This document shows positions 16,257-32,000 of a stretch of DNA of 32,000 nt, piece after piece. The notes below the pieces were generated by a model. The model was given only the letters and a program-made list of their open reading frames with translations. It ran no database searches and had not been told where the DNA came from. Origin of the DNA: Myxococcota bacterium. Its GTDB lineage: Bacteria > Myxococcota_A > UBA9160 > JAFDDA01. The stretch lies in NCBI GenBank assembly GCA_965228475.1, contig OZ245817.1, positions 4,080,931 through 4,112,930 on the forward strand, in the 5' to 3' direction. Every line of letters begins with the position of its first letter. The first letter of the stretch is position 1. Both the position numbers and the translations under genes were made by a program.

Positions 16257-16278
16257 GGAGCCCGGCGGCCGGAGACGC

Positions 16279-16294
16279 CGTGAAGCACTTCACA
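16279..16294. promoter_or_regulatory. CRP-type palindrome (cGTGA-N6-TCACA) upstream of the distal crp gene
   Basis: CGTGAAGCACTTCACA has 9 of 10 consensus half-site bases and the same AGCACT spacer as the box at 24203. Its centre is 30.5 nt from ATG 16256 and 54.5 nt from GTG 16232. It overlaps the TGA stop (16290-16292) of the upstream crp gene. Confidence 0.6.
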
Positions 16295-17434: not shown

Positions 17435-18566
17435 GCGTTTCCTCCCGAGGCGCCCGGCCGGCGACGAGATGATACGCCTGGGTCCGGTTGGTCTCGAGGA
17501 ACGCCTCCGAGGCACGCAGGAAGACCCGGAAGGCCCGGACCGACTCCTCGCCGAAGCGTTCCGCCAGGGCCTTCTCTTCCCGCTCCAGCGCGTCCGCCCA
17601 GTCGCGACAGGTCCATGCGTAGGAGATCGTGTCGTCGACGAGTTCGTGCACGTTGAAGCCCTGGGCGACGAGCGCTTCGAGGAGCTTCGGCACGTTCACG
17701 TAGCGGGCGGTGCCCGGGAAGATGTAGCGGCCGAGGAACGCGCCGACCTGGAACCCGCTTCGCTCGCTGCAGAAGTCCGCCCAGAGGCGGCCGTCGTCGC
17801 GGAGGTGGGTCGCGAGGAAGCGGGCGGCATAGGCGTAGTCGGTGAAGTGCTCGAAGGTTCCCATGAAGACCGCGCCGTCGAAGGGCATGGCGGGCTCGAA
17901 GTCGAGCAGGTCGATCCGTTCGACGCAGCAGGGGAGCGAACGCTCGCGAATCAATCCTTCGACGAAACGCCGCTGTTCCTCCGAGAGCGTGATGCCGTGC
18001 ACCTCGATTCCGCGGAGTCCGGCGAATTCGAGGAACGAGCCCCAGCCGCAGCCCATGTCGAGCACACGCATGCCCGGTTCGAGCCCGAGCGTCTCGATGG
18101 CGCGCTCGAACTTGCGGGCCTGGGCCTCCTCGGGAAGATCGTCTTCGGACGCGTAGAGCCCGTGCGAGTAGGAGCGCCAGCGCTCGAACCAGGGCAGGAA
18201 GAACTCGGGCGGGCGATCGTAGTGGAAGGCCACGGACTCGCGCTGCAGGCTGCGGCGGTCGCGGAGCAGGAGCTGTGCCGCGAAGCGCAGCCGCTCGTAG
18301 AGCGAGGGGTCCGGGGCGATCACCTCGGTGAGTCGGATGACTTCGCGGAAGTCCCCTTCGACGTCGATCGCGCCGTGCAGATAGGCCTCGGCGACGCCGA
18401 GCAGGTCCTGCCGCTCGAGGGCGCAGAGCGCCTCGTCTTCGTGGAACACGACCCGCGTTCGCTCCGGGTCCGGGCCGACCCGGTGGAGCACCTCGCTCTC
18501 GTTCTCGAGGGTGAGGTTGGCGCCGGCCTCCGCGAGGGCGTCGATGAGCGGGACGAGGGCGTTCAC
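17427..18566 (-). CDS. Cyclopropane-fatty-acyl-phospholipid synthase family SAM-dependent methyltransferase
   Basis: FHYDRPPEFF, SYSHGLY, LEEAQARKFE and the SAM motif I MRVLDMGCGWGSF are typical of the CMAS/CFA-synthase family. GTG 18566 forms a GTGA overlap with the giant-gene stop. The ORF-track extension to 19649 is off-frame-type sequence inside the giant gene. Confidence 0.8.
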   Translation of the reverse strand: MNALVPLIDALAEAGANLTLENESEVLHRVGPDPERTRVVFHEDEALCALERQDLLGVAEAYLHGAIDVEGDFREVIRLTEVIAPDPSLYERLRFAAQLLLRDRRSLQRESVAFHYDRPPEFFLPWFERWRSYSHGLYASEDDLPEEAQARKFERAIETLGLEPGMRVLDMGCGWGSFLEFAGLRGIEVHGITLSEEQRRFVEGLIRERSLPCCVERIDLLDFEPAMPFDGAVFMGTFEHFTDYAYAARFLATHLRDDGRLWADFCSERSGFQVGAFLGRYIFPGTARYVNVPKLLEALVAQGFNVHELVDDTISYAWTCRDWADALEREEKALAERFGEESVRAFRVFLRASEAFLETNRTQAYHLVAGRAPREETLV

Positions 18567-21500
18567 GCGGCGCTCTTCGACCCCTCCGGGCGCGTGCGCC
18601 GGCGCCGCAGGCGCGCCAGGCCGAGCAGGCCGATCAGCTCGGGGCCGAGCCCGCAGCCACCGGCCTTTTCCTTCGCAACGTAGGGGTTCCCGTTGCACTG
18701 CGGGTCGGGCAGGCCGAAGCCGCCGCCGTCGTAGTCCGTGAAGCCGTCGGCGTCGTTGTCGAGACCGTCGCTGCAGGCCGGGTCTTCCCGGGCGCCGTCG
18801 GGGGCGATGCAGCCCGGATCGCCACCGACGTCGGAGCCGTAGTCGCCGTCGTTGTCCCGGCCGTCGTCGCACACCAGCAGGTTCGAGCGCTCGCTCGTGT
18901 CCGCACCGTCGTCGCAGCCGGCGTCGGCGAGATCCACGAGGCCGTCGCCGTCGTTGTCGATGCCGTCGCTGCAGGCGTTGCCGCCTCCGACGTAGGCGCA
19001 AAGAGAATCGCAGACGCCATCGATGCCGTTCTGCGAACCGTGGTCGCAGCCTTCTCCGTACTCCTGGATGCCGTTGCCGCAGCTCTGGCGGTCGCAGGCA
19101 TCGCCGATGCCGTCGCCATCGACGTCGAGCTGATCGCCGTTGGCGACGTCCTGGCAGTTGTCGATCGGGTCGGCGAGGCCGTCGCCGTCCGCGTCGGCCG
19201 CGGTGGCGATGGTCGTCGTGCCGAGGTCGCAGGTGGCACCTTCGTTGCACTGAGAGTCGTTGTCGCAGGAGCCGTCGCCGTCGGAGCAGCGGCCGCGCGT
19301 CACGTAGCGCTGGCGGCCGTCCTCCGCCTCCTCGAGCGTGGCGAAGAGCGCCTCCGGGTTCAGACCGTCGTCGACGCAGACCTCGGTGGCCGCGCACTCG
19401 GCGTCGGTCAGGCACGGCCCGGTGATGTCCTTGCAGGTGAAGGACCCCGGAACGCCGAGCACGGGGGAGCAGAACTCGTCCCCGGGGCACGAGTCCGGAA
19501 CCTCGGGGTTGCAGCCCGAGCCGGTGTCGAAGAGGCAGCCACCCGGCGGGAAGTAGCATTCGCCTCCGCCCGAGCAGTCGGCATTGCTCGCACAGCCCGC
19601 CGCCGTGACGGTGCAGATGCCCGCGACCGCTCCACCGACGATGTCGCACGCGTCCTCCATCGATCCGCCGGCGATCAACGCCTCCGGGTTGAAGTGCTGG
19701 ATGACGAGGTTCAACGGCCCGCCGCTCTGGTCGAGGTCGTTCCCGCCCTGCTGGGCCTCGAGCGTGAGGAAGCTCACCTTCGTGCCGAGGACGCGGTACG
19801 GGATGCGCGGATCACAGGCTTCCACCGGGCACGGAATGGCGGCCTGCATGCCGTTGTAGGTGCGGCCCGTGGACAGGTCCATGACGTGCATGACCGAATC
19901 GAAGAGATCGCCGTCCGCCACGCCTCCCACGATCGGCGGCACGACGCCGTTCAGGTTGACCCCCTCCCCTTCTTCGCTCACCCGGAACGCGATGATGTCC
20001 TCTCCGAGGACGAAGTCGTCGACGGCGGGGTTGAAGCGAGCCACGCCCTGGTCGTCGAGGAAGGCGACGGGCTGTCCGCTGGCGTCGTAGACGTGCAACA
20101 CGCGGTCGAGCTGATCGCCGTCTCCGTTCAAGGCGGCTCCCTGGTCCGCCTCCGGCACGGTGAAGGCGACGAAGCCTCCGACGGTCTGGACGTCGTCCGC
20201 GGCCAGGAAAAGGTTCTGCCAGGTCCCGCTCGTTCCCGTCGCCGTGTCGTTCAGATGGACGACGAGGTCGTCCATGTCGCCATCGCCGTTCAGGAAGAGG
20301 CCTTCCTGCGCCTCCGAGGCCAGGGCTGCAACGACCTGACTCGAAACCGCGACCTGATCGGCGGCCAGGGCCAGGTTCACCGCGGGGCCGGCCTGGCGGT
20401 TGCGGTAGAGCTGGACGACGAGGTCGTCGAAGTCGCCGTCGCCGTTGTGGTCGACTCCAGCGCCCGCCGCGGACTCGTCGGCCAGGAAGGCCGCGTTGCC
20501 ATCGCGCACGCTGACGGCCTCGGCGCTGCCGAAGCGAAGGACGGTGAAGGGGCCGACCGCCTGCGTGTCCGCGACCGCGAGCACCGTGTCGCGCGAGTCC
20601 CCGTCGCCGTTCAGGTCGTTGCTCGCGCCGTCGAGCGCGGGTTTGCGGAGGTAGCGGCCGCCCGGAAGCAGCTTGGCGTGGAAGACCGTCTCGGCGTCCC
20701 CCTGGATCTGCCCGGAAGTGTCGGGCTGATTGCCGAGTCCGTCGGGGAAAAACGAGAAGATCCTGGTGACTCGGTCCACGAACTGCGGAGCGAAGCTCCC
20801 GGAAGGATGGCCACCGAAGTAGAAGGGCTGGACGAGTGCGTAGCGGCCGTCCGAAGAGAGCGTGCCTCCCTGGCTGGGCGTGTCGAAGCCCAGCGTGGAG
20901 AGCCCGACCTCCTCGCGCGACACCGTCCCCGGCTCGTCGAAGATGCCGTCGTCGTCGCCGTCCCGATCGTAGATGACCGCCAACCCGCCGGGCTGCCAGC
21001 CCATGATCACGCGGCCGTCGTCGCTCATGTCCGTCGGGATGATCCACTGGGTGTCGAGCAGGGAGGGCGAGACGAACTCGGCTTCGCCGCTCTCGTCGTA
21101 GATTCCGTCGCCATCGAGGTCTCGGTCGAGGATGAAGGCGTCGCTGCGCAGGTTCGTATCCCCCGCGATGAGGTTCGACGCCGTCGAGCGGAAGAGAACG
21201 TAACGGCCGTCGCGAGACATCTCCGCCGGCGTGAACAGGTCGTCGTTGGGCGCCACGCCCACCCCGAGCACGGCGTCACTCGCCCGATAGCTCGCGATCG
21301 CCCCGGGCTCGTCGTAGATCCCGTCTTCGTCGGTGTCCCGGTCGTGGATGACGAGCTCGCTGTCCAGGAACGCGTCGCCAGCGATCATGTTCGTCGCGCT
21401 GGAGGCGAAGACCACGAACCTTCCGTCGTCGCTCATGCGCGGACGCGAGGAGCCGTTGTTGGCCTGGACACCGGCCGAGCTCACGCTCACCCGGACGTTC

Positions 21501-24148
21501 GCCACGAAACCCGGCTCGTCGTAGATCCCGTCCTCGTCGGTGTCCCGGTCGTGGATGAACACGTCGTCGCTGCCGTTCGTGTCGCCCGCGATCAGGTTGC
21601 TCGCGTCCGAGGAAAAGGCCACGTAGCGGCCGTCGGCGCTGATGTCTCCGATGTGGTGGTCCCCGGCGACGGGGTTGCCCAGGGTGTCGAGGCTCACGGT
21701 GATCCGGACGAAGCCTTCGTCGAGGATGCCGTCGAGATCGTCGTCCCTGTCGTAGACCTCGAGGAACGAGCTCGTCTCGTTCTGGTAGGCGATCCAGCGC
21801 TGGTTGCTCGAAAAGCGCAGCTCGTCGCCGAGGAACGAACGGTTGGCGACCTGCCAGCTTGCACCCCCTCGCTCCGACTCGCGAAAGAAGACCAGGCCGT
21901 CGGACACCGCCAGGGTCTGCCCGTTGACGTCCGCGATCGGATCGACTGCGAGATCGAGGCCGGCGGTCAGCTCGGTCGGAGCGGGCGTTTCGATCCGGAA
22001 GACTCGCAGGAGCGTGTCCAGACGGTCGCCGTCGCCGTTCAACCCGCCCAAGACCGACGGGGACTCCCATCGCTCCGCCTCGAGGAAGGCGGCGATGTCG
22101 TCCTCGATCGCCAGCGGCGGGAAACGATAGATCCCGTCCCGGACGCGGGCAGAGGCCCGGCCGGTTCCGCCGACCCGGCGCGCGATGTCCGCGGAATCCG
22201 CACTGTCGTCGATCTTGAGGTCGATGATCGTCTCGTCCGTCGAGTCGCCGTCGAGGTTGAGATCGGTGGACTCGAGCCGTTCCGAGCGCACGAACGCGAA
22301 CAGGTCGTCGGTCTGGGCCAGCGACTCGATCGCGACGGGGTTCAGGGCCTCGGCGGTGTACTCGGCGCTCGCCAGGAGGATCGGGCCGGTTCCGCCCGAG
22401 TAGCGATCGCTGAAGTCGAAGTTGCTCGGACCACACTCCCCGCCGGGACAGGCGCCATCCCCGGTGCACGCGACCCCGTCGTTGACGCCACCCCGGCAGA
22501 GCGCCTGGACGCAGGTCGAGGACGGACACTCGAAGTCGGCGATACAGGCCAGCCCGCCCCGGGTCCCGGCGGCGCACTCGCGGAACTCGGGGCTCCGGCG
22601 CAGCACGCGGATCACGCCGATCTCGGCATCCGTGGACCCGAACAGCGTCGTGTCGGTGCTCGTGGGGTTGGAGAGTGGGTTGAACAGCGGATCGACTCGT
22701 AGCCCCTTCTGCGAGAGCGACTGCAGGAAACGCGCGCCGGGAATCTCGATCGGCGCTCCCGGCGTCTGGTTCGCCTCGGGCGGCGCCCCAGTGAACGCAG
22801 CGATCGAGCTCTGGATCTGGACGAGGCGTGGAATGGGCAGGGTTCGTGGCTGGACGAGAACGCCCCGCCAGTCCACCGGAATGACCAGGTTGCCCTCGGC
22901 GTCCGTCGTGAACTGGACGTCGGCGCCGCTGTTGTTGCAGCTCACCGACGGGTTCCCGGCGGTGCAGATGTCTTGAAAATCATTGGGCGCGGGCAGCGCC
23001 GTCACGCCGGCGAACTGCTCGTGGGCGTTCTCCGGTCCCGCCTCACAGGTCCCGTCGGAGGCGTAGATCCGGTCGATGCAGGCAACGAGGCCGCCTGGCG
23101 CACCTGGCCCCCCGCACTCGGTCGTCGCGAGGGCGCACGGCAGTGCGGCGCCGCTTGGAGAGACCGCAAGGGTCGTCGGGCCCACGAAAGCGGTATCCGG
23201 AAAAGCGAAGGAGATGGCATCGGCCTGGACGCTCGGCGACAGGTCGTCGCGGCAGGTCGCAGTCCCGCCGCCCAGACTCGCGTTGCAGGCGGCGACCTGA
23301 CTGACGAATGCGGTGCAGTCCCCACCGGGCCCCGGGATGATCACGGCGTTCGCCGGACCCGAGGGCGGCTCGAAGAGGACCGTCGTCGTGGCGGGGCTCG
23401 CCGAATCGTGCAGGGTGAAGTTGTCGATCGCCCACCAGTCGTTGGCCGCCTGCTTGAGCTCGGCCAGAATTCGAAGCTCGTCCACGTCGGCAAGGAGTGC
23501 AGCCCAGCTCCCCGAAACGAGCTGCCAGTTCCCGGTCGGCCCCGCGCTCGAGATCGGGATGTCGAAGCCGCTGCCCCATTGCTCGAAGGGGATGGCCGAG
23601 ATCTCGGCCTGGTCGGCCTGGTACTCGGCGACGCCTCCGGGGCCTTCGATGCGGATCAGCGCGACCGGGGCCGTGAGGTACGGGCCGGCATCGAACCCGG
23701 TCCAGTGCTCCCACGAGATCCGGTTCACGCCTCGCGCCAGCCAATCGCCGAGGTACTGCGACGGCGCGAGCAGGCTCGCCACGTCGCCAGCGCTTCCGTC
23801 GCCGCCGAACAGCACGCGCCCGGGCGGAGGGTTCCTTCCGGCGTTGAAGAAGAAGGCGTGCGTCCCGAACGTCGCCCAGGCTTCCAAGCCGCCTGACTCG
23901 AAATCGCTCAGCGTGGCGGCCGAGCCGAAGCTCGTACCCGATTCGCACCCCGCCGGGTCGAGGGCGATGCGAACCGGGTCACCGGGGCTCGCGAACACCC
24001 GGTTCACGCTTCCCGCGGCGCCGCGAAACTCGGTCTCCGGCTGGGGAATGACGTCGCAGTACGAGGCAGCGGTGCTCGGCAGGAGCGCCGAGGCCAGGAC
24101 GGCCAGGGCAACGATCGCAAGTGAACCCGCGCGGCAGGAGATCTTCAT
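18563..24148 (-). CDS. Giant secreted acidic Ca-binding-repeat / Cys-rich surface protein, paralog A (1861 aa)
   Basis: ATG 24148 (MKISCRAGSLAIVALAVLASALLPSTAAS/YCDV) has GAGGGA 10 nt upstream. After the signal peptide comes a lectin/CBM-like module ending in DNFTL, then Cys-rich segments. Next are five PD40/TolB-like blades (S.DGR.V.F.S.A.NLIAGDTN), each followed by DRDxDxDGI[YF]DE. LNGDGDxxDxV[LV]H repeats follow, then thrombospondin type-3 repeats (DADGDGLADPIDNCQDVANGDQLDVDGDGIGDACD). A Myxococcus-type Cys-rich repeat (CGNGIQEYGEGCDHG...C) and three C.DG.DNDGDG modules come next. The C-terminal tail is GGCGLGPELIGLLGLARLRRRR. Confidence 0.85.
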   Translation of the reverse strand: MKISCRAGSLAIVALAVLASALLPSTAASYCDVIPQPETEFRGAAGSVNRVFASPGDPVRIALDPAGCESGTSFGSAATLSDFESGGLEAWATFGTHAFFFNAGRNPPPGRVLFGGDGSAGDVASLLAPSQYLGDWLARGVNRISWEHWTGFDAGPYLTAPVALIRIEGPGGVAEYQADQAEISAIPFEQWGSGFDIPISSAGPTGNWQLVSGSWAALLADVDELRILAELKQAANDWWAIDNFTLHDSASPATTTVLFEPPSGPANAVIIPGPGGDCTAFVSQVAACNASLGGGTATCRDDLSPSVQADAISFAFPDTAFVGPTTLAVSPSGAALPCALATTECGGPGAPGGLVACIDRIYASDGTCEAGPENAHEQFAGVTALPAPNDFQDICTAGNPSVSCNNSGADVQFTTDAEGNLVIPVDWRGVLVQPRTLPIPRLVQIQSSIAAFTGAPPEANQTPGAPIEIPGARFLQSLSQKGLRVDPLFNPLSNPTSTDTTLFGSTDAEIGVIRVLRRSPEFRECAAGTRGGLACIADFECPSSTCVQALCRGGVNDGVACTGDGACPGGECGPSNFDFSDRYSGGTGPILLASAEYTAEALNPVAIESLAQTDDLFAFVRSERLESTDLNLDGDSTDETIIDLKIDDSADSADIARRVGGTGRASARVRDGIYRFPPLAIEDDIAAFLEAERWESPSVLGGLNGDGDRLDTLLRVFRIETPAPTELTAGLDLAVDPIADVNGQTLAVSDGLVFFRESERGGASWQVANRSFLGDELRFSSNQRWIAYQNETSSFLEVYDRDDDLDGILDEGFVRITVSLDTLGNPVAGDHHIGDISADGRYVAFSSDASNLIAGDTNGSDDVFIHDRDTDEDGIYDEPGFVANVRVSVSSAGVQANNGSSRPRMSDDGRFVVFASSATNMIAGDAFLDSELVIHDRDTDEDGIYDEPGAIASYRASDAVLGVGVAPNDDLFTPAEMSRDGRYVLFRSTASNLIAGDTNLRSDAFILDRDLDGDGIYDESGEAEFVSPSLLDTQWIIPTDMSDDGRVIMGWQPGGLAVIYDRDGDDDGIFDEPGTVSREEVGLSTLGFDTPSQGGTLSSDGRYALVQPFYFGGHPSGSFAPQFVDRVTRIFSFFPDGLGNQPDTSGQIQGDAETVFHAKLLPGGRYLRKPALDGASNDLNGDGDSRDTVLAVADTQAVGPFTVLRFGSAEAVSVRDGNAAFLADESAAGAGVDHNGDGDFDDLVVQLYRNRQAGPAVNLALAADQVAVSSQVVAALASEAQEGLFLNGDGDMDDLVVHLNDTATGTSGTWQNLFLAADDVQTVGGFVAFTVPEADQGAALNGDGDQLDRVLHVYDASGQPVAFLDDQGVARFNPAVDDFVLGEDIIAFRVSEEGEGVNLNGVVPPIVGGVADGDLFDSVMHVMDLSTGRTYNGMQAAIPCPVEACDPRIPYRVLGTKVSFLTLEAQQGGNDLDQSGGPLNLVIQHFNPEALIAGGSMEDACDIVGGAVAGICTVTAAGCASNADCSGGGECYFPPGGCLFDTGSGCNPEVPDSCPGDEFCSPVLGVPGSFTCKDITGPCLTDAECAATEVCVDDGLNPEALFATLEEAEDGRQRYVTRGRCSDGDGSCDNDSQCNEGATCDLGTTTIATAADADGDGLADPIDNCQDVANGDQLDVDGDGIGDACDRQSCGNGIQEYGEGCDHGSQNGIDGVCDSLCAYVGGGNACSDGIDNDGDGLVDLADAGCDDGADTSERSNLLVCDDGRDNDGDYGSDVGGDPGCIAPDGAREDPACSDGLDNDADGFTDYDGGGFGLPDPQCNGNPYVAKEKAGGCGLGPELIGLLGLARLRRRRTRPEGSKSAA

Positions 24149-24202
24149 CGTCAGTGCGTCCCTCATCATGGACGGAGCTTCCGCAATCCTGGCCGCCGGC
24201 TC

Positions 24203-24218
24203 TGTGAAGCACTTCACA
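24203..24218. promoter_or_regulatory. Perfect CRP-type palindrome TGTGA-N6-TCACA upstream of giant paralog A
   Basis: TGTGAAGCACTTCACA extends to the 18-bp perfect palindrome CTGTGAAGCACTTCACAG. Its centre is 62.5 nt upstream of ATG 24148, in the 208-nt gap between the two giant genes. Confidence 0.65.
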
Positions 24219-24226
24219 GGAAAGAT

Positions 24227-24248
24227 CGAAAAGTGGGGCGCGAGCCCC
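24227..24248 (-). terminator. Weak candidate terminator after giant paralog B
   Basis: On the minus strand, GGGGC-tcgc-GCCCC (5-bp stem) is followed by ACTTTTCGATCTTTCC. It lies between the paralog B stop and the CRP box of paralog A. The stem is short and the homologous position upstream of paralog B folds differently. Confidence 0.3.
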
Positions 24249-24309
24249 CCGAGGAAGTCTGGACGGTGGCCGTATTGTACTCTCAGGCGGCCCCTCGAGG
24301 GACCCTGAG

Positions 24310-24360
24310 TCAGCGCTTTTGGCCGACGCGGGCCCCGATGAGCGGGACGAGGGCGTTCAC
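24310..24360 (-). pseudogene. Duplication scar: 16-codon remnant of the methyltransferase 5' end
   Basis: Nt 24336-24366 repeat nt 18542-18572 almost exactly (cgatgagcgggacgagggcgttcacgcgg). This preserves the GTGA stop/start overlap after paralog B. The remnant reads VNALVPLIGARVGQKR*; its first 8 residues are identical to the methyltransferase N-terminus VNALVPLIDAL. Confidence 0.65.
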
Positions 24361-27300
24361 GCGGCGCTCTTCGACCCCTCCGGGTGCATGCGTCGGCGCC
24401 GCAGGCGCGCCAGGGCGAGCAGTCCGATCAGCTCGGGGCCGAGCCCGCAGCCCGTGCCTTCCTTGTTCACCGAAGCGTTCGGGCATTGCGGGTCCGGATC
24501 GCTGAAGCCACCGCCGTCGAAATCGGTGAAGCCGTCGCCGTCGTTGTCCAGACCGTCGCTGCAGGCGGGATCCTCGCGAAGCCCGCCCGGGAGGAGGCAG
24601 CCCGGGTCACCCCCGACGTCCGCACGGTAGTCCCCGTCGTTGTCCCGGCCGTCGTCGCACACCATCACGTTCGTGCGCTCGCTCGCGTCGGCCGCGTCGT
24701 CGCAACCCGGATCGATCAGATCCACCCGGCCATCGCCGTCGTTGTCGATGCCATCGTTGCACGCGGTTCCGGCGCCCTCGTAGGCGCAGGCCGCGTCGCA
24801 CACGCCGTCGATCCCGTTCTGGGCGCCGTGGTCGCACCCCTCGCCGTACTCCTGGACCCCGTTCCCGCACACCTCGCGGTCGCAGGCATCCCCGATGCCG
24901 TCGCCATCGATGTCTAGCTGGTCGCCGTTGGCGACGTCCTGGCAGTTGTCGATGGGGTCGGCGAGACCGTCGCCGTCGGCGTCGGCCGCGGTGGCAATCA
25001 CGAGGACGTCGAGGTCGCAGGTCGCACCCGCGTTGCACTGGGCATCGCTATCGCAAGACCCATCCCCGTCCGAGCAACGGCCCCGGGTCACGTAGCGCTG
25101 GCGGCCATCCTCTTCCTCGCGGATCGAGGCGAAGAGTTGCTCCGGGTTCGACTGGTCCGCGACGCAAACCTCGGATGCGGAGCACTCATCGTCCGTCAAG
25201 CACGGGCCGGTGAATTCCTGGCAGGTGAACGTTCCCGGAGAACCAGGCTGAGGTGCACAGAACTGACTACCGCTGCAAGTCACGGGGTTCTCCGGTGCAC
25301 AGATCGTCCCGGTGTCGGAGAGGCAGCCGCCGGGTGGGAAGTAACAGGTGCTCCCTCCGGTGCAGTCGAGATCGCTCGCGCAGCCTTCGCCCGTCGCGGT
25401 GCAGAACCCCCCGATGGCTCCGCCGAGGATGTCGCACGCGTCTCCCATCGGCGCCCCAGCAGCCAAGGCACCGGCGTTGAAGTGCTGGAGCACGAGGCTC
25501 AGAGGCCCCCCGCTCTGGTCCAGGTCGTTTGTCCCCTGCTGCGCCTCGAGGGTGAGGAAGGTGACCTTGTCGCCCAGAACGCGGTAGGGGACACGCGGAT
25601 CGCAGGCTTCGACCGGGCACGGAATCGCCGACTGGTTCGAGTTGTAGGTGCGGCCGGTCGCCAGGTCCATCACGTGGATCACGGCGTCCAGCAGGTCGGC
25701 GTCGGCGACCCCACCGGGAATAGGCGGAACCACGCCGTTGAGATTGACGCCCTCCCCCGCCTCACTGACCCGAAAGGCGATGATCTGCTCACCCAGGACG
25801 AAATCCTCGACTGCGGGGTTGAAGCGCGGTGCGCCAGTTTCGTCGAGGAAGAGAACGGGCTGGCCGGCCCCATCGTAGACGTGCAGCACGCGGTCGAGCT
25901 GATCACCGTCGCCGTTCAGCGCGGCACCTTGGTCAGCCTCCGGGACGGTGAATGCGACGTAGTCACCCCGGGCCTGAACGTCGTCCGCCGCCAGGAAGAG
26001 ACTCTGCCAGGTCGCATCGGTGCCGGTTGCCGTGTCGTTCAGGTGGACGACGAAGTCGTCCATGTCGGCATCGCCGTTGAGGAACAGGCCTTCGCCGGCC
26101 TCGGAGACCAGAGCTGCGACCCACGCGTCCGAAACCGCGACCTGCGATGCCGCCAGGCCGAGGTTGACGGGACTCCCGACCTGCCGGTTCCTCCACAGGT
26201 GGACGACCGAGTCGTCGAAGTCGCTATCGCCATTGAGATCGAGGACCGGATCGGCGGCTTCGTCGCGGAGCCAGACGGCCGTCCCGTCCGCAATCTGCAC
26301 GTCCTCGCCCGGGCCAAGGAAGGCCGCGGCTGGCATCGCGGCCTGGGTGTCGAGAACCGAGAGCAGCACGTCCTCGGCGTCCCCGTCGGAGTTCAGGTCG
26401 GCACCGAGATCGAAGCGATCGACCGTCGAGATCATCAGCGTATCGTTGTCGTTGAAGGGCGCGATGGTGTCCCGCACCACGATGCTGGTGGCATCCGCCG
26501 AGACGGGCATCATCCAGGGCCCATCGGCCAGACCCAGGACCAGCGCGTTCCCCCGGAGGCCGGTCTCGAAATCGGCGGTCTCGATCCCGAAGCGGGTGAA
26601 GCCGACCCGTCGTCCCGATGGATCGAGGCCCAACGCTTGATCGTCGACGACGCCGAGATCCACGATGTCGATGCCGTCCGATTCGTCGAAGACACCGTCC
26701 TCGTCCGCGTCGCGGTCGACGACGATCGCAGCGACGCACGAGGTGAAGGGACACTCACCGTTCGCGAGGAAGCTCACGAAGCGCCCGTCGTCGGAGACGT
26801 CTGTGAGCTCGACGACGTTGCTCACCCCGGGAAGGGGCATGATCGAGGACACGATGGTCGCGGCGGTGATCGTCCCTGGCTCGTCCAACAACCCGTCGTC
26901 GTCGGAGTCGCGGTCGAAGACGACCACTTCCGCGTTCACGTTGAGGAAGGCCGCGATGAATCGACCATCCGGCGTCATCTTGAGCGGCCGATTCGTGGTC
27001 GGCAGACCCAGGCCGGCCTCCGTGCCGAGGTCGATCACGACGTTCGGCGGAGCGATCTCATCGTAGATCCCGTCGCCATCGGGGTCTCGATCGGTGACGA
27101 AGACTCCACCGACGAATCCGCCGCCAACCTCGTTTCCGCGCAGGGCGGCGACGTGGCGCCCATCGGACGAGATCTGCGGAAACACGGTCGCGAAGATCGG
27201 CACCGCGAAGTCGAGCAGCGTGGTCGTCGGCAGCCCGGGGCCGGGCCCCTCGTCGAAGATGCCGTCCTCGTCGGGGTCCCGGTCTCGCACGTAGACGTCG

Positions 27301-29978
27301 AAGTTCCCGTCGACGTCGCCCGGCCCGAGGGATCGCGTCGCGAGAGCGAGATGGCGCCCGTCGTCACTCAGGTCTGCGCCGCCGAAGGTGTAGATGGGGA
27401 ACGGGTCGCAGATGCCGATGCAGCCGATCTCTGCCCCGGTGTCGGAGAGGCTTTGCCTCGTGATCTCGGTGGCGCCGGCCTCGTCCAGGATGCCGTCCGC
27501 GTCGGTGTCGCGATCCAGCACGAAGTGATCGGGGTCGAAGTTGGTGTCCCCAGCGACCAGGTTGTCGGCATCGCTCTCGAAGATCAGGAATCGACCATCG
27601 GGCGTGATGTCCCCCGGGAAGGTCATCGAGTTCGGAGCCGGTTCGGGCGACAGCACGACGGTGCTCCGGACCGCCGAGTCGAGCTCCGAGCTGCGGTAGA
27701 AGAGCAGACCGTCAGAAAGGCGTAGCGGCGCGTCTGCCACCTCCGGGAGGGCGTCGAGTGCCGGGGGCGTGCCCGTCACGAGCGCGACGGGAGACCCAGC
27801 CTCCAGCCGGAAGGCGCGGAGTACGCCATCGACCGTGTCTCCGTCGAGAGTGGAGTCGGAATCGCCCTCGCCGTACTCGGACTCGACCATCGCCAGGACG
27901 TCACCTTCGACGTCGAAGGCCGGGAAGCGGTAGGGGAACACGCGGACCCGCGTGCTTGCACGCCCCGCGGCGCCCGGAGCGCCGATCTCGACGACCTCGC
28001 CCGTTTCGGCGTCGACCATCGAGACGATCGTGGTGTCGTCCTGGTCGCCGTCCAGGTTGAGGTCTGCCGACTCGAGGGGCTCGGACCGGACGAACATGAA
28101 CAGATCGTCGTTGGCGACGAGGCCATCGATCGCTGCCGGGTTCGCTGCCTCGGCCGTGTAGTCGACGCTCGACAGCAGGACCGGGCCCGTCCCCCCCGCG
28201 GAGTAGCGATCGCTGAAGTCGAAGTTCGAGGGTCCGCACTCCCCGCCCGGGCAGGCGCCGTCGCCCGAGCAGACCAACCCGTCCCGGCTTCCGCCGCGGC
28301 AGCGCGCCCGGACGCAGGTCGAAGCCGGGCACTCGAAGTCCGCGATGCAGGCCAGAGCGCCTCGCGGACCACCGGCACACTCCTTGAACTCAGGACTCCG
28401 GCGAAGAACCCGGATCACTCCGATCTCGGCGTCCGTGGAGCCGAACAGGGTGGTGTCGGAACTCTGGGGGTCGGAAATCGGGTTGAACAGCGGATCGACC
28501 CGCAGCCCTTTCTGGGAAAGCGACTGCAGGAAGCGCAACCCGGGTACCTGGATGGGCGCACCGAGTGTCTGATTGACCTCCGGTGGGGTGCCCGTGAACG
28601 CGGCTACGGAGGTACTGACGCTCACGAGCCGGGGAATGGGCAGGGTCCGGGGCTGAACGAGGACCCCGCGCCAGTCCACCGGCACGACGACGTTGCCCTC
28701 TGCATCGGTCGTGAACTGGACGTCGACACCGCTGTTGTTGCAGCTGACGGAAGGATTGGTTGCGGTGCAGATGTCCTGGAAGTCGTTGGGTGCGGGAAGC
28801 GCCGTCAGCCCGGCGAACTGTGGGTGGGCGTTCGCGGCGTCGGTCTCACAGGTCCCGTCCTGCGCGTAGATCTCGTCCGTACACGCGATGAGACCGGCCG
28901 CGGGGCCGAGGTCCGCGCAGCGGTTCGTTGCCAGTTCGCACGGCAACGGACCGCCATCGAAGGTCACCGCGACGGAGACGGGACCGGCGAAGGACGTTGC
29001 CGGGAAGTCCAGAGTCAGCCGATCCGTCGTCGCCGTGATCGCCGGATCCTCGACGCAGGTGGGCATCGGCCCGCCGAGCTCGGCGCCGCAAGCCGCCAGC
29101 TCTGCGGCCATGGCGGCGCAACCCCCGGCGACGGGAGTGACCACCACGGCGTTCGAGGGTCCGGCGGGCGGCTCGAAGACGAAGGTCACCACGTTGGGCG
29201 TGCTCGTCGATTCTTGGAGCGTCAGGTTGTCGATGCCGTAGGAATCGCATGAAGCGTCGCCCAGCTCGCCGAGGATGAGGACGCTGCTGACGTTCGAGAG
29301 CACCTGGTCCCACGTCTCGGCGCCCGCCGCGAGGCTCCAACCGGGCGGCGGACTGCTGCCCGGCGCGACGGGAATGCTGAAGCTCCCCCAGCTCCCGACG
29401 GGAATCGCGTCGATCTCGGCCTGTGAGGGCTCGTACTGGTAGGTGGTTCCAGCTCCGGAAAGGACTCGAACGAGCGGGATCGGCACCGTCAGACGGGCGC
29501 CTCCGCAAAGACTCACGATCTGGTGGTCCCACGCAATGCCGGTGACACCACGCGCGATCCAGTCGCCGTCCCAGCTCGAGGGCGCGCTGACACCGGCGTC
29601 GGTCGTCGGTGCGATGTCCTGGCCGAACACATGGCCATCGGGGTTGCCACCGGGCGATTGCCAGAAGAACAGGTCGTGGAAGCCGCTCACCAACCAGCCC
29701 TCGAGATCCGCCGCGAACGGGCTGACCAGCGGGCTGGGCATGCTGTTCGGGAAACTCGTGCCCGCCTCGCAGCCGGCGGGGGCATCGTCGAGCGAAACCA
29801 CGAGTGGATCGCCGGCGCTCGCGTACACGCGGTTCAGGCTTCCGACGGCGCCGCGGAACTCGGTCTCGGGTTGGGGAATGACGTCGCAATACGACACGGC
29901 GGGGGTCGGCTGGAGGACGAGGACCAGGGCGACCGCCACGGCCGCCCGAAGAGAGGTGGTGCGAACGGAGATCTTCAT
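24357..29978 (-). CDS. Giant secreted acidic Ca-binding-repeat / Cys-rich surface protein, paralog B (1873 aa)
   Basis: ATG 29978 (MKISVRTTSLRAAVAVALVLVLQPTPAVS/YCDV) has GAGGGA 7 nt upstream. It has the same module order as paralog A. The N-terminal about 650 aa and C-terminal about 650 aa align colinearly with many identical blocks. The central blade region has diverged. The tail is GCGLGPELIGLLALARLRRRR. Confidence 0.85.
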   Translation of the reverse strand: MKISVRTTSLRAAVAVALVLVLQPTPAVSYCDVIPQPETEFRGAVGSLNRVYASAGDPLVVSLDDAPAGCEAGTSFPNSMPSPLVSPFAADLEGWLVSGFHDLFFWQSPGGNPDGHVFGQDIAPTTDAGVSAPSSWDGDWIARGVTGIAWDHQIVSLCGGARLTVPIPLVRVLSGAGTTYQYEPSQAEIDAIPVGSWGSFSIPVAPGSSPPPGWSLAAGAETWDQVLSNVSSVLILGELGDASCDSYGIDNLTLQESTSTPNVVTFVFEPPAGPSNAVVVTPVAGGCAAMAAELAACGAELGGPMPTCVEDPAITATTDRLTLDFPATSFAGPVSVAVTFDGGPLPCELATNRCADLGPAAGLIACTDEIYAQDGTCETDAANAHPQFAGLTALPAPNDFQDICTATNPSVSCNNSGVDVQFTTDAEGNVVVPVDWRGVLVQPRTLPIPRLVSVSTSVAAFTGTPPEVNQTLGAPIQVPGLRFLQSLSQKGLRVDPLFNPISDPQSSDTTLFGSTDAEIGVIRVLRRSPEFKECAGGPRGALACIADFECPASTCVRARCRGGSRDGLVCSGDGACPGGECGPSNFDFSDRYSAGGTGPVLLSSVDYTAEAANPAAIDGLVANDDLFMFVRSEPLESADLNLDGDQDDTTIVSMVDAETGEVVEIGAPGAAGRASTRVRVFPYRFPAFDVEGDVLAMVESEYGEGDSDSTLDGDTVDGVLRAFRLEAGSPVALVTGTPPALDALPEVADAPLRLSDGLLFYRSSELDSAVRSTVVLSPEPAPNSMTFPGDITPDGRFLIFESDADNLVAGDTNFDPDHFVLDRDTDADGILDEAGATEITRQSLSDTGAEIGCIGICDPFPIYTFGGADLSDDGRHLALATRSLGPGDVDGNFDVYVRDRDPDEDGIFDEGPGPGLPTTTLLDFAVPIFATVFPQISSDGRHVAALRGNEVGGGFVGGVFVTDRDPDGDGIYDEIAPPNVVIDLGTEAGLGLPTTNRPLKMTPDGRFIAAFLNVNAEVVVFDRDSDDDGLLDEPGTITAATIVSSIMPLPGVSNVVELTDVSDDGRFVSFLANGECPFTSCVAAIVVDRDADEDGVFDESDGIDIVDLGVVDDQALGLDPSGRRVGFTRFGIETADFETGLRGNALVLGLADGPWMMPVSADATSIVVRDTIAPFNDNDTLMISTVDRFDLGADLNSDGDAEDVLLSVLDTQAAMPAAAFLGPGEDVQIADGTAVWLRDEAADPVLDLNGDSDFDDSVVHLWRNRQVGSPVNLGLAASQVAVSDAWVAALVSEAGEGLFLNGDADMDDFVVHLNDTATGTDATWQSLFLAADDVQARGDYVAFTVPEADQGAALNGDGDQLDRVLHVYDGAGQPVLFLDETGAPRFNPAVEDFVLGEQIIAFRVSEAGEGVNLNGVVPPIPGGVADADLLDAVIHVMDLATGRTYNSNQSAIPCPVEACDPRVPYRVLGDKVTFLTLEAQQGTNDLDQSGGPLSLVLQHFNAGALAAGAPMGDACDILGGAIGGFCTATGEGCASDLDCTGGSTCYFPPGGCLSDTGTICAPENPVTCSGSQFCAPQPGSPGTFTCQEFTGPCLTDDECSASEVCVADQSNPEQLFASIREEEDGRQRYVTRGRCSDGDGSCDSDAQCNAGATCDLDVLVIATAADADGDGLADPIDNCQDVANGDQLDIDGDGIGDACDREVCGNGVQEYGEGCDHGAQNGIDGVCDAACAYEGAGTACNDGIDNDGDGRVDLIDPGCDDAADASERTNVMVCDDGRDNDGDYRADVGGDPGCLLPGGLREDPACSDGLDNDGDGFTDFDGGGFSDPDPQCPNASVNKEGTGCGLGPELIGLLALARLRRRRMHPEGSKSAA

Positions 29979-30029
29979 GGTTGCGTCCCTCGTCATGGAC
30001 GGAGCTTCCGCGATCTTCGCCGGTAGCTC

Positions 30030-30045
30030 TGTGAACCACTTCACA
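30030..30045. promoter_or_regulatory. Perfect CRP-type palindrome TGTGA-N6-TCACA upstream of giant paralog B
   Basis: TGTGAACCACTTCACA has both half-sites perfect. Its centre is 59.5 nt upstream of ATG 29978 and it begins 85 nt downstream of the STAND/TPR gene stop. Confidence 0.65.
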
Positions 30046-30129
30046 GGAGACCCGGAAAGTCGGGTCCCCGAAGGAAGAGCGCCCTGGGGCCGCATTGTAC
30101 CTGGGCGCGGGGGTCTCATGGACCGCGGG

Positions 30130-32000
30130 TCAGGCCCGGGGGCCGCGCAGTCCCATTCCGGCTAGTGCACGATCGACCCGCTCGACCTCCGGGAGCATCC
30201 CGAGCGCCTCGGCTTCGGCGCGGGCCCGGAGCCACCAGCGGCGGGCGCCCCGGGCATCGCCGATGAGCGAACGGCGCGTTCCTTCGAGGCGCTGGATCTC
30301 GGGCCGGCGCAGGGCCACCCAGCCTCCGGCGCGCAGCGCTTGCCGGGCGACCCTGCGCGCGAGCTGCCGGTCTCCCCGGCCCTCCGCGAGGGCATCGAGC
30401 TCGCACAGCAGCCGGGAGCGCAGCACGACCGCCTTGTGGAAGGGAGGCACGAAGGCGGTCGCCTCGGAGAGCAGCGACTCCGCGGCGGTCAGGCTGCGCT
30501 CGGCCTCCTCCCGCCGCCCGAGGCCCAGCTGGGCCTTCGCCTTGTTCCCGAGAGCCAGGAGGTTCGGGAGCGGGTCCGGCTGCTCGCTGAAGTGCGCCTC
30601 GGCCGCCTCGATCGCCCGCTCCCATTCTTCCCGCTCGAGCGCCAGGAACGTCTCGAGCGCCCGCACCGTGGCCTTCGCCTGCTCGAACTGGAAGAGTTCG
30701 GCCACATGCTCGAGGCGCGCGATCCCCGTGCGCGCCTCCTCGAACCGGCCCTGCATGATGCGGCGCTCGGTCTGCAGGCCCAGGTAGTTGGTGACGTCGA
30801 AGAGCTGGCCGTCGCGGATCCGGTCCTCGAGGAAGTCGACGGGCAGCTCGTGTGCCGCGCTCCAATCGCCGGCCAGCGTTTGGTGGGTGGCATTCATCAT
30901 GCCGTAGATCATGCGCTCTTCCGGGTCGTCGGCGTCCACGAGTTCCCGGGCCTGGGCGAGGAACCGCTCGCTGATGGCGAAGGAGACGCCGCCGAAGGAG
31001 AAGATCCCGACGCTCGATGCGAACTGTCCGCCGGCGAGCGGAAGCGTGCGCGGGTCGACGTCTCCCAGGCGACGCACGGCGTCCATCCAGTCGAAGAGGT
31101 AGCGGTCCGTCGCGTTCGTCGTCTGCGCGCGCGCGCGCTCGTAGACGAGCTCCTGGATCTGGCGTTCCGTTTCCGTCGCCCCGCGACGCGCCCTCCCGAA
31201 GCGGCGGAAGTAGACGCGGCCGAGGATCAGCGCGAGGTCGCGCACGAGGCGGAGGTTGCGGCGAATCGGCTGCTTCGCTCCGACCACGCCATGGCATTCG
31301 AGCGCCGCGTCGAAGTGGAGGATGGCCTCGGCATAGCGGCCGCGGTTCACGAGAGCCAGGGCCATGTTCCGCTCGAGCAGGCCGAGCTTCTCCGAGCGGT
31401 CTTCCTCACCGTGGAGATTGCGGAACAGGGCGGCGGCGTCCTCGAAGAAACGCAGTGCCTCGTCCGATGCCGCGGAGCGCGCCGCTTCGTCGCCGGCCGC
31501 GAACAGGTGGTGCTCGGCGCGCTCCACGTCCCCCGCACGACTGAAGTGGTGCGCGAGCATCGCGTGGGCACCGGGCTCGTCGCCGTCGAGCCGCGCCTCG
31601 ACGGCGCGGCCCACCTGGCCGTGCAGCTCGCTGCGCCGGCCCTCGAGCATCGAGTCGTAGACGACCTCCTGGATCAAGGGATGCTTGAACTGGAACTCGC
31701 CGGCTCGCCCTTCGCGGCGTTCGATCATCTCCGACGTCTCGAGGCGCGCCAGGTCGCCCTCGACCGCGCGGCCCTCCACATCGGCGAGGACATCGCCCTC
31801 GAAGGCGAAGCCGATCGCCGACGCGACGCGCAGGAGGTCGCGCCCCTCCCGGCCGAGACGGTCCACGCGGGCCATCACGACCTCCTGGAGGGTTCCGGGG
31901 ACGGCGACCTCGTGGATCCGGGGCGTCGCGACGAGTCGGCCGCCGCGCTCTTCGAGCGCGCCGGCGTCCCGCAGGCCGCGGACGACCTCCTCGGCGTAGA
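30130..32000 (-). CDS. C-terminal part of a large STAND/AAA(+)-TPR signalling protein, 5' end beyond window
   Basis: The reading frame is open from nt 31998 (YAEEVVRGLRDAGALEERGGRLVATPRIHEVAVPGTLQEVVMARVDRL). The blocks TLQEVVMARVDRL, FQFKHPLIQEVVYDSML and HAMLAHHFSRAGD are typical of the winged-helix/linker after an AAA_16-type NTPase. About 450 aa of TPR-like helical repeats follow. The N-terminal effector domain is not visible. Confidence 0.75.
   Translation of the reverse strand, partial: YAEEVVRGLRDAGALEERGGRLVATPRIHEVAVPGTLQEVVMARVDRLGREGRDLLRVASAIGFAFEGDVLADVEGRAVEGDLARLETSEMIERREGRAGEFQFKHPLIQEVVYDSMLEGRRSELHGQVGRAVEARLDGDEPGAHAMLAHHFSRAGDVERAEHHLFAAGDEAARSAASDEALRFFEDAAALFRNLHGEEDRSEKLGLLERNMALALVNRGRYAEAILHFDAALECHGVVGAKQPIRRNLRLVRDLALILGRVYFRRFGRARRGATETERQIQELVYERARAQTTNATDRYLFDWMDAVRRLGDVDPRTLPLAGGQFASSVGIFSFGGVSFAISERFLAQARELVDADDPEERMIYGMMNATHQTLAGDWSAAHELPVDFLEDRIRDGQLFDVTNYLGLQTERRIMQGRFEEARTGIARLEHVAELFQFEQAKATVRALETFLALEREEWERAIEAAEAHFSEQPDPLPNLLALGNKAKAQLGLGRREEAERSLTAAESLLSEATAFVPPFHKAVVLRSRLLCELDALAEGRGDRQLARRVARQALRAGGWVALRRPEIQRLEGTRRSLIGDARGARRWWLRARAEAEALGMLPEVERVDRALAGMGLRGPRA

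What the first reader, a model, noticed from the sequence alone, without database searches (positions are those of the whole stretch)
24203..30045. Perfect CRP-consensus palindromes in front of both giant surface-protein genes
TGTGAAGCACTTCACA (24203-24218) and TGTGAACCACTTCACA (30030-30045) each match all 10 specified bases of the classical CRP/GlxR operator TGTGA-N6-TCACA. Their centres lie 62.5 and 59.5 nt upstream of the two start codons. If the geometry is class II (-41.5), the transcription start would fall about 5 nt upstream of the GAGGGA Shine-Dalgarno sequence in both copies. The same cluster encodes two Crp-family proteins whose recognition helices keep the Arg-Glu pair (ASRESV, ATREAV) that reads GTG in E. 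coli CRP and mycobacterial Crp. A fully specified 10-base pattern is expected well under once by chance in 32 kb (rough estimate, composition not modelled). I found no other full match in the window. This suggests that expression of enormous envelope proteins is wired directly to a cyclic-nucleotide signal.
Basis: partly seen in the sequence, partly recalled or inferred. Interest (0 to 1): 0.8.

Follow-up and report, generated by a model that had tools for sequence, protein, structure and literature searches.

The report
CRP-type operator boxes before giant genes
Two perfect CRP-type DNA boxes, plus a third near-perfect one, sit at activator distance in the promoters of two giant secreted-protein genes and a regulator gene in an uncultured Myxococcota genome; this is a well-supported but fairly ordinary case of cyclic-nucleotide-type gene control.

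Summary
TGTGA-N6-TCACA occurs exactly twice in the window, at 24203-24218 and 30030-30045, with 0 expected by chance. A third box with one mismatch lies at 16279-16294. All three lie upstream of minus-strand genes: giant gene A, giant gene B and crp1.

The two perfect boxes are not independent. They are old tandem-duplication paralogs of a ~5.8 kb unit.

Independent support comes from 76 related Myxococcota loci that carry orthologs of the local regulator Crp2:
- 19 perfect boxes are found where 0.25 are expected.
- 35 of 49 boxes lie within 1.5 kb of the crp gene.
- The spacer consensus (TGTGAA-S-Y-R-S-TTCACA) is the same as in the window.
- A -10-like nAnnnT hexamer sits exactly 22 bp after the core, which is the class II (-41.5) signature.

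All three window boxes have this hexamer (GAAGCT, GAAGCT, CATGCT).

The predicted transcription starts are 24169, 29996 and about 16245. At both giant genes the predicted start coincides with an in-frame ATG.

Giant A, a CMAS-like methyltransferase, a small membrane protein and crp2 overlap and form one operon, which implies an autoregulatory loop.

The ligand, the direction of regulation and the surface location of the giant proteins remain inferred. Verdict: a new member of a known kind, of moderate interest.

The parts
24203..24218 (.). Box A: perfect TGTGA-N6-TCACA. The extended palindrome on the minus strand is CCTGTGAAG-TG-CTTCACAG. It lies in the promoter of the giant A operon.
   Evidence: It matches the lineage consensus TGTGAA-S-Y-R-S-TTCACA.
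30030..30045 (.). Box B: perfect TGTGA-N6-TCACA in the promoter of giant gene B.
16279..16294 (.). Box 3: one mismatch (minus strand TGTGAAGTGCTTCACG). It overlaps the TGA stop codon of crp2 (16290-16292) and lies upstream of crp1.
   Evidence: The 16 nt CTGTGAAGTGCTTCAC are identical to box A.
24176..24181 (-). -10-like hexamer GAAGCT. It occupies positions 22-27 after box A, which puts A at -11 and T at -7.
30003..30008 (-). -10-like hexamer GAAGCT after box B, at the same spacing.
16252..16257 (-). -10-like hexamer CATGCT after box 3, at the same spacing.
24167..24169 (-). Predicted transcription start of the giant A operon (24169, box centre + 41.5). It coincides with an in-frame ATG, which the gene caller used as the start (1868 aa).
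29994..29996 (-). Predicted transcription start of giant B (29996). It coincides with an in-frame ATG 18 nt upstream of the called start.
18563..24169 (-). Giant gene A (1861-1868 aa). It has a signal-peptide-like N-terminus, PD40-like and thrombospondin-type-3-like acidic repeats, and a C-terminal hydrophobic helix followed by RRRR.
24357..29996 (-). Giant gene B (1873-1879 aa), an old tandem paralog of A. A terminator-like hairpin follows it at 24248..24235.
17427..18566 (-). CMAS-like methyltransferase gene. It overlaps the end of giant A by 4 nt.
17024..17434 (-). Gene for a 136-aa hydrophobic protein. It overlaps the CMAS gene by 8 nt and crp2 by 4 nt.
16290..17027 (-). crp2 (245 aa), the last gene of the giant A operon. 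It belongs to a large Myxococcota Crp family with an invariant RE..NK recognition helix.
15627..16232 (-). crp1 (201 aa, GTG start preceded by GGAGG at 16244..16240). Its recognition helix reads ASRESVNK.

Best explanation
The three boxes are operators for the locally encoded CRP-type regulators (Crp2 and/or Crp1). Each box is centred at about -41.5 of an activator-dependent (class II) promoter. These promoters lack a -35 element and have a weak -10 of the form nAnGCT.

The proposed mechanism is as follows. A Crp dimer, probably loaded with a cyclic nucleotide, binds TGTGAAG-yr-CTTCACA and recruits RNA polymerase. Transcription then starts at 24169 (giant A - CMAS-like methyltransferase - small membrane protein - crp2 operon), at 29996 (giant B) and at about 16245 (crp1).

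Because crp2 is the last gene of the giant A operon and crp1 has its own box, the circuit is autoregulatory, most likely with positive feedback.

What is shown:
- the boxes, their spacing to the -10-like hexamers and to the ATGs;
- the overlapping genes that define the operon;
- the family-wide association of this box with this Crp family, and the class II spacing across genomes.

What is inferred:
- which of the two Crp proteins binds;
- activation rather than repression;
- the ligand (cAMP or cGMP);
- the exact transcription starts;
- whether translation begins leaderless at the ATG at +1 or at the downstream ATG behind GAGGGA.
For: - The two boxes are exact and none is expected by chance. 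The third box shares 16 of 16 nt (CTGTGAAGTGCTTCAC) with box A.
- Crp1 and Crp2 carry cNMP_binding + HTH_Crp_2 domains. Their best solved relatives are M. tuberculosis Crp and GlxR, with the same RE.VNK helix and the GE...R-T phosphate-binding residues.
- In 1.11 Mb around 76 Crp2 orthologs there are 19 perfect boxes (0.25 expected) and 30 one-mismatch boxes (9.5 expected).
- 35 of those 49 boxes lie within 1.5 kb of the crp gene, p = 3e-15.
- The unselected spacer positions give TGTGAA-S-Y-R-S-TTCACA, as in the window.
- A at position 23 together with T at position 27 after the box occurs in 22 flanks, against 0-6 at other offsets. This equals the 22-bp core-to--10 spacing that a review describes as exclusive to class II promoters (PMC10187061).
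- All three window boxes show this spacing.
- No sigma-70 -35/-10 pair is detectable at any of the three promoters.
- The promoter block is better conserved between the old paralogs (box 15/16; -10 to Shine-Dalgarno block 29/31) than most of the coding sequence.
- The giant homolog in L002 keeps the box, GACAAT and the ATG at identical distances.
- Gene overlaps of 4, 8 and 4 nt define the operon.
- Class III cyclase genes lie next to or behind boxes in three related loci.
Against: - There is no experimental binding or transcription-start data.
- Boxes A and B descend from one duplication.
- The -10 hexamers are weak and were recognised after the fact.
- No cyclase gene lies in the window or in 6.8 kb of extra flank.
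- Some CRP-family proteins act without a ligand or respond to other ligands (PMC10187061).
- Only 3 homologs of the giant protein exist in 5.8 billion proteins, so direct footprinting of this promoter rests on a single degenerate box.
- Several close Crp2 orthologs (L005-L008, L011) have no box within 10 kb.
Confidence: 0.7

Rival explanations
1. The same regulator binds the same boxes, but it acts as a repressor or roadblock. A box that overlaps the -35 region occludes RNA polymerase, and the box between crp2 and crp1 limits read-through. The circuit would then be negative autoregulation.
For: The box occupies the -35 region. Box 3 overlaps the crp2 stop codon inside a possible crp2-crp1 co-transcript. 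CRP proteins repress some promoters, including their own (PMC10187061).
Against: No -35 element or sigma-70-like promoter is present that could work without an activator. The fixed 22-bp spacing to a weak -10 across 22 related promoters is the activation geometry.
Confidence: 0.13
2. The palindrome is the site of a different transcription factor encoded elsewhere in the genome. Its proximity to crp1 and crp2 is coincidental.
For: No binding data exist. Many CRP/FNR paralogs exist in Myxococcota, and TGTGA-type cores are recognised by several subfamilies.
Against: Boxes cluster within 1.5 kb of Crp2 orthologs in dozens of genomes (p = 3e-15). Both local proteins carry the RE..NK helix of the TGTGA-binding Crp(Mt)/GlxR proteins.
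Confidence: 0.07
3. The boxes are non-functional: a chance palindrome that was copied along with the giant gene by the tandem duplication.
For: A and B are paralogous, so two perfect matches reflect one origin.
Against: The paralogs are old (30-85% identity per 60-nt window, with no long identical tracts), yet the box and the -10/start block are nearly invariant. An independent third box exists. The same motif and geometry recur across related genomes.
Confidence: 0.03
4. The palindrome works as a nucleic-acid hairpin, for example an RNA stability or termination element in a longer transcript started at the conserved TACAAT upstream.
For: The box can form a 7-bp hairpin of -8.2 kcal/mol. A conserved GTACAATRCGGCC block lies 57-70 nt upstream.
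Against: The upstream regions fold no better than shuffles (z = -0.8 and -1.0). There is no U-tract after the box and no Rfam match. Across related genomes conservation follows the DNA half-sites TGTGA/TCACA with a variable centre, and not compensatory pairing.
Confidence: 0.03

Closest known systems
Actinobacterial Crp/GlxR (M. tuberculosis Rv3676, C. glutamicum GlxR)
   Same: These are the best solved-structure matches (E = 2e-29 for Crp2 and 8e-37 for Crp1). They share the RE.VNK recognition helix, the GE...R-T nucleotide-binding residues and the TGTGA-N6-TCACA operator.
   Different: The phylum is different (uncultured Myxococcota), and sequence identity is modest: the matches are strong by E-value (2e-29 for Crp2, 8e-37 for Crp1) but percent identity was not computed. 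Two paralogs sit side by side. The ligand is unknown. The targets here are giant secreted proteins.
E. coli CAP class II promoters (e.g. galP1; site at -41.5)
   Same: The box replaces the -35 element. [quoted passage not shown] The same core half-sites are used (PMC10187061).
   Different: The -10 is GC-rich (nAnGCT). The activating regions were not examined. About a third of the related promoters have an ATG at the predicted start, which suggests leaderless mRNAs. This has not been checked against E. coli.
Rhodospirillum centenum CgrA (cGMP-responsive CRP) with TGTGAactgctTCACA before the gcyB-gcyC-cgrA operon
   Same: The regulator gene lies in the same operon as its box-controlled targets. 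The identical sequence TGTGAACTGCTTCACA occurs in related loci L036 and L066 (PMC10187061). Cyclase genes are box-linked in related genomes.
   Different: No cyclase is present in this operon. Nothing here discriminates cGMP from cAMP.
Myxococcus xanthus MrpC (a CRP-family developmental regulator)
   Same: Same phylum and same superfamily (PMC10187061).
   Different: According to that review, MrpC is controlled by its synthesis and by phosphorylation, not by a cyclic nucleotide. From my own knowledge, it binds different sequences. It was not compared here.

Membership tests
CRP/FNR superfamily, CRP (CAP / Crp-Mt / GlxR) type regulator | N-terminal cyclic-nucleotide-binding beta-roll domain plus a C-terminal Crp-type helix-turn-helix | tested here: met
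   PF00027 (E = 3e-20 and 1e-21) and PF13545 (E = 1e-14 and 4e-16) hit both proteins.
CRP/FNR superfamily, CRP (CAP / Crp-Mt / GlxR) type regulator | Recognition helix with the Arg-Glu pair and a basic residue five positions later (RETVGR in CAP, RETVNK in Crp-Mt) | tested here: met
   The helices read RESVNK (Crp1) and REAVNK (Crp2), aligned to RETVNK of 3d0s/3mzh/3h3u. R, E, N and K are invariant in 21 family members.
CRP/FNR superfamily, CRP (CAP / Crp-Mt / GlxR) type regulator | Binds cAMP (or cGMP) and is allosterically activated by it | not testable with these tools
   The GE...RRTA phosphate-binding cassette is present. The position equivalent to T127 on the C-helix reads V in Crp2 by my own hand alignment, not a tool result. 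Ligand binding needs biochemistry.
CRP/FNR superfamily, CRP (CAP / Crp-Mt / GlxR) type regulator | Binds TGTGA-N6-TCACA | tested here: inconclusive
   The in-silico association is strong: 19 perfect boxes against 0.25 expected, and 35 of 49 boxes beside the crp gene.
Class II CRP-dependent promoter | Site centred near -41.5, i.e. [quoted passage not shown] | tested here: met
   A at position 23 and T at position 27 after the box are found in all three window promoters and in 22 related flanks, against 0-6 at other offsets. The transcription start itself is not mapped.
Class II CRP-dependent promoter | No functional -35 hexamer; the activator site takes its place | tested here: met
   No sigma-70-like promoter is found at any of the three sites. 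TTCACA lies 21 nt from the -10, which is too far to serve as a -35 (my reading).
Class II CRP-dependent promoter | Transcription depends on the activator | not testable with these tools
   Reporter fusions or in vitro transcription are needed.
PEP-CTERM / MYXO-CTERM sorted surface proteins (for the giant proteins) | C-terminal sorting domain recognised by TIGR02595 / TIGR03382 | tested here: not met
   The C-termini GCGLGPELIGLLGLARLRRRR give no hit even at E <= 10, whereas the L053 target does hit PEP_CTERM (E = 4e-5). They resemble the format (a helix followed by an Arg cluster) but are not members.
Secreted calcium-binding repeat proteins (thrombospondin type 3-like) | Acidic DxDxDG repeats similar to COMP/thrombospondin | tested here: inconclusive
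   There is one short match to COMP 3fby (E = 4e-6, residues 1652-1686) and sub-threshold NF033662 acidic double-disulfide repeats. No Pfam family passes threshold.

The most novel reading that the evidence does not exclude
An undescribed regulon spans uncultured, mostly marine, Myxococcota. In it a conserved Crp uses class II promoters, and a sizeable share of these (about a third of those with a recognisable -10) start transcription on the ATG itself, giving leaderless mRNAs. In this genome the regulator has been captured into the operon of an extremely rare giant secreted protein. A cyclic-nucleotide pulse would then lock cells, through positive feedback, into displaying two paralogous 1,870-aa calcium-binding proteins.
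Probability: 0.3. Interest if true: 0.55.

Novelty: new member of a known kind. Interest (0 to 1): 0.4.

Why it matters
The finding gives a concrete, testable wiring diagram for an uncultured lineage: operator, -10, predicted transcription starts, operon and feedback loop. It ties a nearly orphan family of giant secreted proteins (3 homologs among 5.8 billion proteins) to a second-messenger-type regulator.

The cross-genome analysis also defines the operator (TGTGAA-S-Y-R-S-TTCACA) and the promoter architecture of a widespread Myxococcota Crp family. Candidate regulon members include:
- class III cyclases;
- DUF3604/P450 gene pairs;
- a tyrosine-phosphatase-like gene;
- an ECF sigma factor;
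- PEP-CTERM and PKD-like secreted proteins.

This does not change what is known about how CRP proteins work.

Tried and rejected
- Sigma-70 consensus scans of all three promoters found nothing.
- A sigma-54 reading (GG-N10-GC) of the sequence after the box failed, because the spacing differs between copies A and B (my reading).
- An RNA-element reading failed. There is no Rfam hit, and the upstream regions fold no better than shuffles.
- Direct footprinting through orthologs of the giant gene was limited. Only 3 homologs exist. L001 is truncated at the contig end, L003 (34% identity, GC 62%) has no box, and only L002 was informative.
- A genome-wide scan of the host was not possible. The host genome is not among the GTDB representatives. 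Extending the host sequence gave 6.8 kb on the left with no further box. The look-up on the right failed because the called start of the TPR gene differs from mine.
- Matches with two mismatches in the window are at chance level (7 found, 4.7 expected) and were ignored.
- PEP-CTERM/MYXO-CTERM membership of the giant proteins was tested and not met.
- My first crp1 start (ATG 16256) was rejected. That ATG lies inside the predicted -10, and the gene caller uses GTG 16232, which sits behind GGAGG.
- A literature search found no paper on this Crp family in Myxococcota, and none on leaderless transcription there.
Full report
OBSERVATION

The pattern TGTGA-N6-TCACA occurs exactly twice in the 32-kb window, at 24203-24218 (TGTGAAGCACTTCACA) and at 30030-30045 (TGTGAACCACTTCACA). 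None of 100 dinucleotide-preserving shuffles produced a match.

The window is about 70% G+C. GC3-based gene finding, together with the public gene calls, shows that the relevant genes are on the minus strand.

Allowing one mismatch adds a third box, CGTGAAGCACTTCACA, at 16279-16294. Two-mismatch hits are at chance level (7 found, 4.7 expected) and were ignored.

ANATOMY OF THE LOCUS

Read on the minus strand, the order of features is as follows:
- a TPR protein gene (30130..31878);
- box B;
- giant gene B (24357..29978/29996);
- a terminator-like hairpin (24248..24235);
- box A;
- giant gene A (18563..24148/24169);
- a CMAS-like methyltransferase gene (17427..18566);
- a gene for a 136-aa hydrophobic protein (17024..17434);
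- crp2 (16290..17027);
- box 3;
- crp1 (15627..16232).

The four genes giant A, CMAS-like, membrane protein and crp2 overlap by 4, 8 and 4 nt. They are therefore almost certainly one operon driven from the box A promoter. Box 3 overlaps the TGA stop codon of crp2 and lies in the 58-nt gap before crp1.

THE TWO PERFECT BOXES ARE PARALOGS

The upstream regions of A and B align. Directly after the stop codon of giant B lies a remnant, VNALVPLIGARVGQKR*, of the first 8 codons of the CMAS gene that follows giant A. A unit of about 5.83 kb was therefore duplicated in tandem. It comprised the last ~40 nt of the TPR gene, the promoter, the giant gene and ~25 nt of the CMAS gene.

The duplication is old. 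Identity per 60-nt window ranges from about 30% to 93%, with no long identical tracts. Against that background two blocks stand out: the box (15/16) and the block GATYGCGGAAGCTCCGTCCATGAYGAGGGACGCA (29/31). The two perfect matches thus count as one origin, but they have been maintained by selection.

THE REGULATORS

Crp1 and Crp2 both carry cNMP_binding and HTH_Crp_2 domains. Among solved structures they are closest to M. tuberculosis Crp and C. glutamicum GlxR (Crp2 E = 2e-29; Crp1 E = 8e-37).

Their recognition helices, ATREAVNK and ASRESVNK, align to ASRETVNK. The GE...RRTA nucleotide-binding cassette is retained. These are the residues that read TGTGA in CAP (review PMC10187061).

INDEPENDENT TEST ACROSS GENOMES

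Crp2 belongs to a large orthologous family of about 235 aa with R-E-x-x-N-K invariant. The family is found almost only in uncultured Myxococcota / 'Deltaproteobacteria' MAGs. The host genome itself is not a GTDB representative; the best hit has 76% identity.

I analysed 76 high-GC loci, 1.11 Mb in total, covering +-10 kb around these orthologs:
- TGTGA-N6-TCACA occurs 19 times perfectly (0.25 expected from first-order Markov simulations) and 30 times with one mismatch (9.5 expected).
- 35 of the 49 boxes lie within 1.5 kb of the crp ortholog, in 19% of the sequence (binomial p = 3e-15).
- For most boxes, no in-frame start codon lies upstream of the box in any overlapping high-GC3 ORF. I did not formally classify boxes as intergenic or coding.
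- Positions 6-11, which were not part of the search pattern, give TGTGAA-S-Y-R-S-TTCACA. This matches the window boxes, and L053 even carries the identical TGTGAAGCACTTCACA.

This ties the motif to this Crp family about as firmly as sequence data alone can.

PROMOTER GEOMETRY

I aligned the 98 directional flanks of those boxes. Position 23 after the core is A in 41 flanks (background 16%), and position 27 is T in 30. The two occur together in 22 flanks at that offset, against 0-6 at any of 16 other offsets.

This is a -10 element of the form nAnnnT with exactly 22 bp between the core and the second -10 position. A review describes that spacing as exclusive to class II CRP promoters (PMC10187061).

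The three window boxes all conform:
- GAAGCT at 24181..24176;
- GAAGCT at 30008..30003;
- CATGCT at 16257..16252.

No -35/-10 sigma-70 pair is detectable, which fits activator dependence. The predicted starts are 24169, 29996 and about 16245. The last lies 1 nt before a GGAGG, which is followed by the GTG start that the public gene call uses for crp1 (201 aa).

LEADER OR LEADERLESS?

- copy A reads ATGATGAGGGACGCACTGACGATGAAG;
- copy B reads ATGACGAGGGACGCA---ACCATGAAG.

The indel between the copies is 3 nt, so the frame is kept. The gene caller used the upstream ATG for A and the downstream ATG for B.

Three observations favour a leaderless start:
- The only informative homolog of the giant protein (P0002 in L002; 44-51% identity, collinear N-termini) has a degenerate box TGTGACGCCGTGCACG (273-288), GACAAT at positions 22-27 after it, and its annotated ATG at position 34 with no Shine-Dalgarno sequence.
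- In related loci, 7 of the 22 flanks with the -10 signature have an ATG at positions 32-35, where about 0.8 is expected.
- The in-frame ATG and the frame-preserving indel noted above.

Three observations favour the short-leader reading:
- GAGGGA is conserved.
- ATGAAGATCTCC is perfectly conserved.
- The crp-ortholog promoters in L080 and L091 clearly use a leader of about 27 nt with a GAGGA Shine-Dalgarno sequence.

I leave this open. Both starts give a plausible signal peptide.

WHAT THE BOXES CONTROL ELSEWHERE

Behind boxes in related loci lie:
- the crp orthologs themselves;
- class III nucleotidyl cyclases in three loci (L015 with AAA_16, L052 with CHASE2, L074);
- divergent DUF3604 / cytochrome P450 gene pairs;
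- a Y_phosphatase3 gene;
- DUF928 and DUF1295 genes;
- an ECF sigma factor gene;
- an 812-aa PKD-like secreted protein;
- a 738-aa PEP-CTERM protein.

The cyclases support a cyclic-nucleotide link, and the large secreted proteins show that such targets recur. No cyclase lies in the window or in 6.8 kb of extra host flank.

THE GIANT PROTEINS

They have no Pfam family above threshold. There are only weak PD40 hits, a thrombospondin/COMP-type acidic repeat match, and sub-threshold 'acidic double-disulfide' repeat hits.

Their C-termini (GCGLGPELIGLLGLARLRRRR) have the format of an X-CTERM sorting signal but do not match the PEP-CTERM or MYXO-CTERM models. Only three homologs exist among 5.8 billion proteins.

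'Surface protein' is therefore a reasonable inference from the signal-peptide-like N-terminus and the C-terminal anchor. It is not a demonstrated fact.

RIVALS

- Repression by the same regulator is possible, but it fits poorly with the absence of any activator-independent promoter.
- A different transcription factor is unlikely, given how closely the boxes cluster with the crp genes.
- A relic palindrome is excluded by the conservation between old paralogs and by the third box.
- An RNA hairpin role lacks support: fold z-scores are -0.8 and -1.0, there is no Rfam hit, and conservation follows the half-sites rather than base pairing.

VERDICT

The system works like a class II CRP/GlxR-type promoter set with an autoregulatory loop.

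It is a new member of a known kind, in an unstudied lineage. The added points of interest are the possible leaderless starts and the capture of the regulator into the operon of a near-orphan giant protein. Interest is moderate (0.4). The mechanism would not surprise a specialist, but the prediction is unusually well anchored and directly testable.

Noticed in passing
24310-24360 (minus strand): A 17-codon remnant ORF, VNALVPLIGARVGQKR*, overlaps the stop codon of giant B. It copies the first 8 codons of the CMAS-like gene that follows giant A. It marks the junction of a ~5.83 kb tandem duplication.
   Followed up: yes
24268-24280 and 30088-30100: A conserved block GTACAATRCGGCC (12 of 13 identical on the minus strand) lies 57-70 nt upstream of each box. 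It contains a near-consensus -10 (TACAAT) but no matching -35. It could be a second promoter or another binding site.
   Followed up: partly
18563-24169 and 24357-29996: The giant proteins form a near-orphan family, with only 3 homologs in 5.8 billion proteins. One comes from a MAG labelled Gemmatimonadota. The L003 homolog also lies near a CMAS-like gene, with a 1085-aa PKD/beta-helix protein encoded next to it.
   Followed up: partly
16279-16294, 24203-24218, 30030-30045: Each box contains GTG AAG TGC TTC AC on the minus strand. ORF finders therefore report spurious 'MKCFT...' starts inside the box (e.g. 18563..24217 and 14236..16293).
   Followed up: yes
L009/L015:9729-9744: In a Myxococcota MAG (crp ortholog at 65% identity), a perfect box CCTGTGAACTCCTTCACAGG lies between the crp gene and a divergently transcribed 1247-aa adenylate/guanylate cyclase-AAA_16 gene.
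   Followed up: partly
L021, L029, L036, L046, L041: A recurrent divergent gene pair, DUF3604 (secreted, ~580-650 aa) and cytochrome P450, has a box in the shared intergenic region about 1.3 kb upstream of the crp ortholog.
   Followed up: partly
14308-15630 (plus strand): A 440-aa protein, convergent with crp1, has a signal/lipoprotein-like N-terminus, a coiled-coil stretch and repeated D-x-N/D-x-D-G-x-x-D motifs. It has no Pfam family.
   Followed up: no
L001:1-60: The partial giant homolog's contig starts with an AT-rich inverted repeat (tctctttatgttgtacg...cgaacaacataaagaga). It is unlike the rest of the 67% GC contig and may be a mobile-element end or an assembly artefact.
   Followed up: no
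L014, L018, L021, L025 and others: Several MAGs carrying this Myxococcota-type crp family, at ~70% GC, are labelled 'uncultured Spirochaetales'. This looks like taxonomic mislabelling of binned genomes.
   Followed up: no
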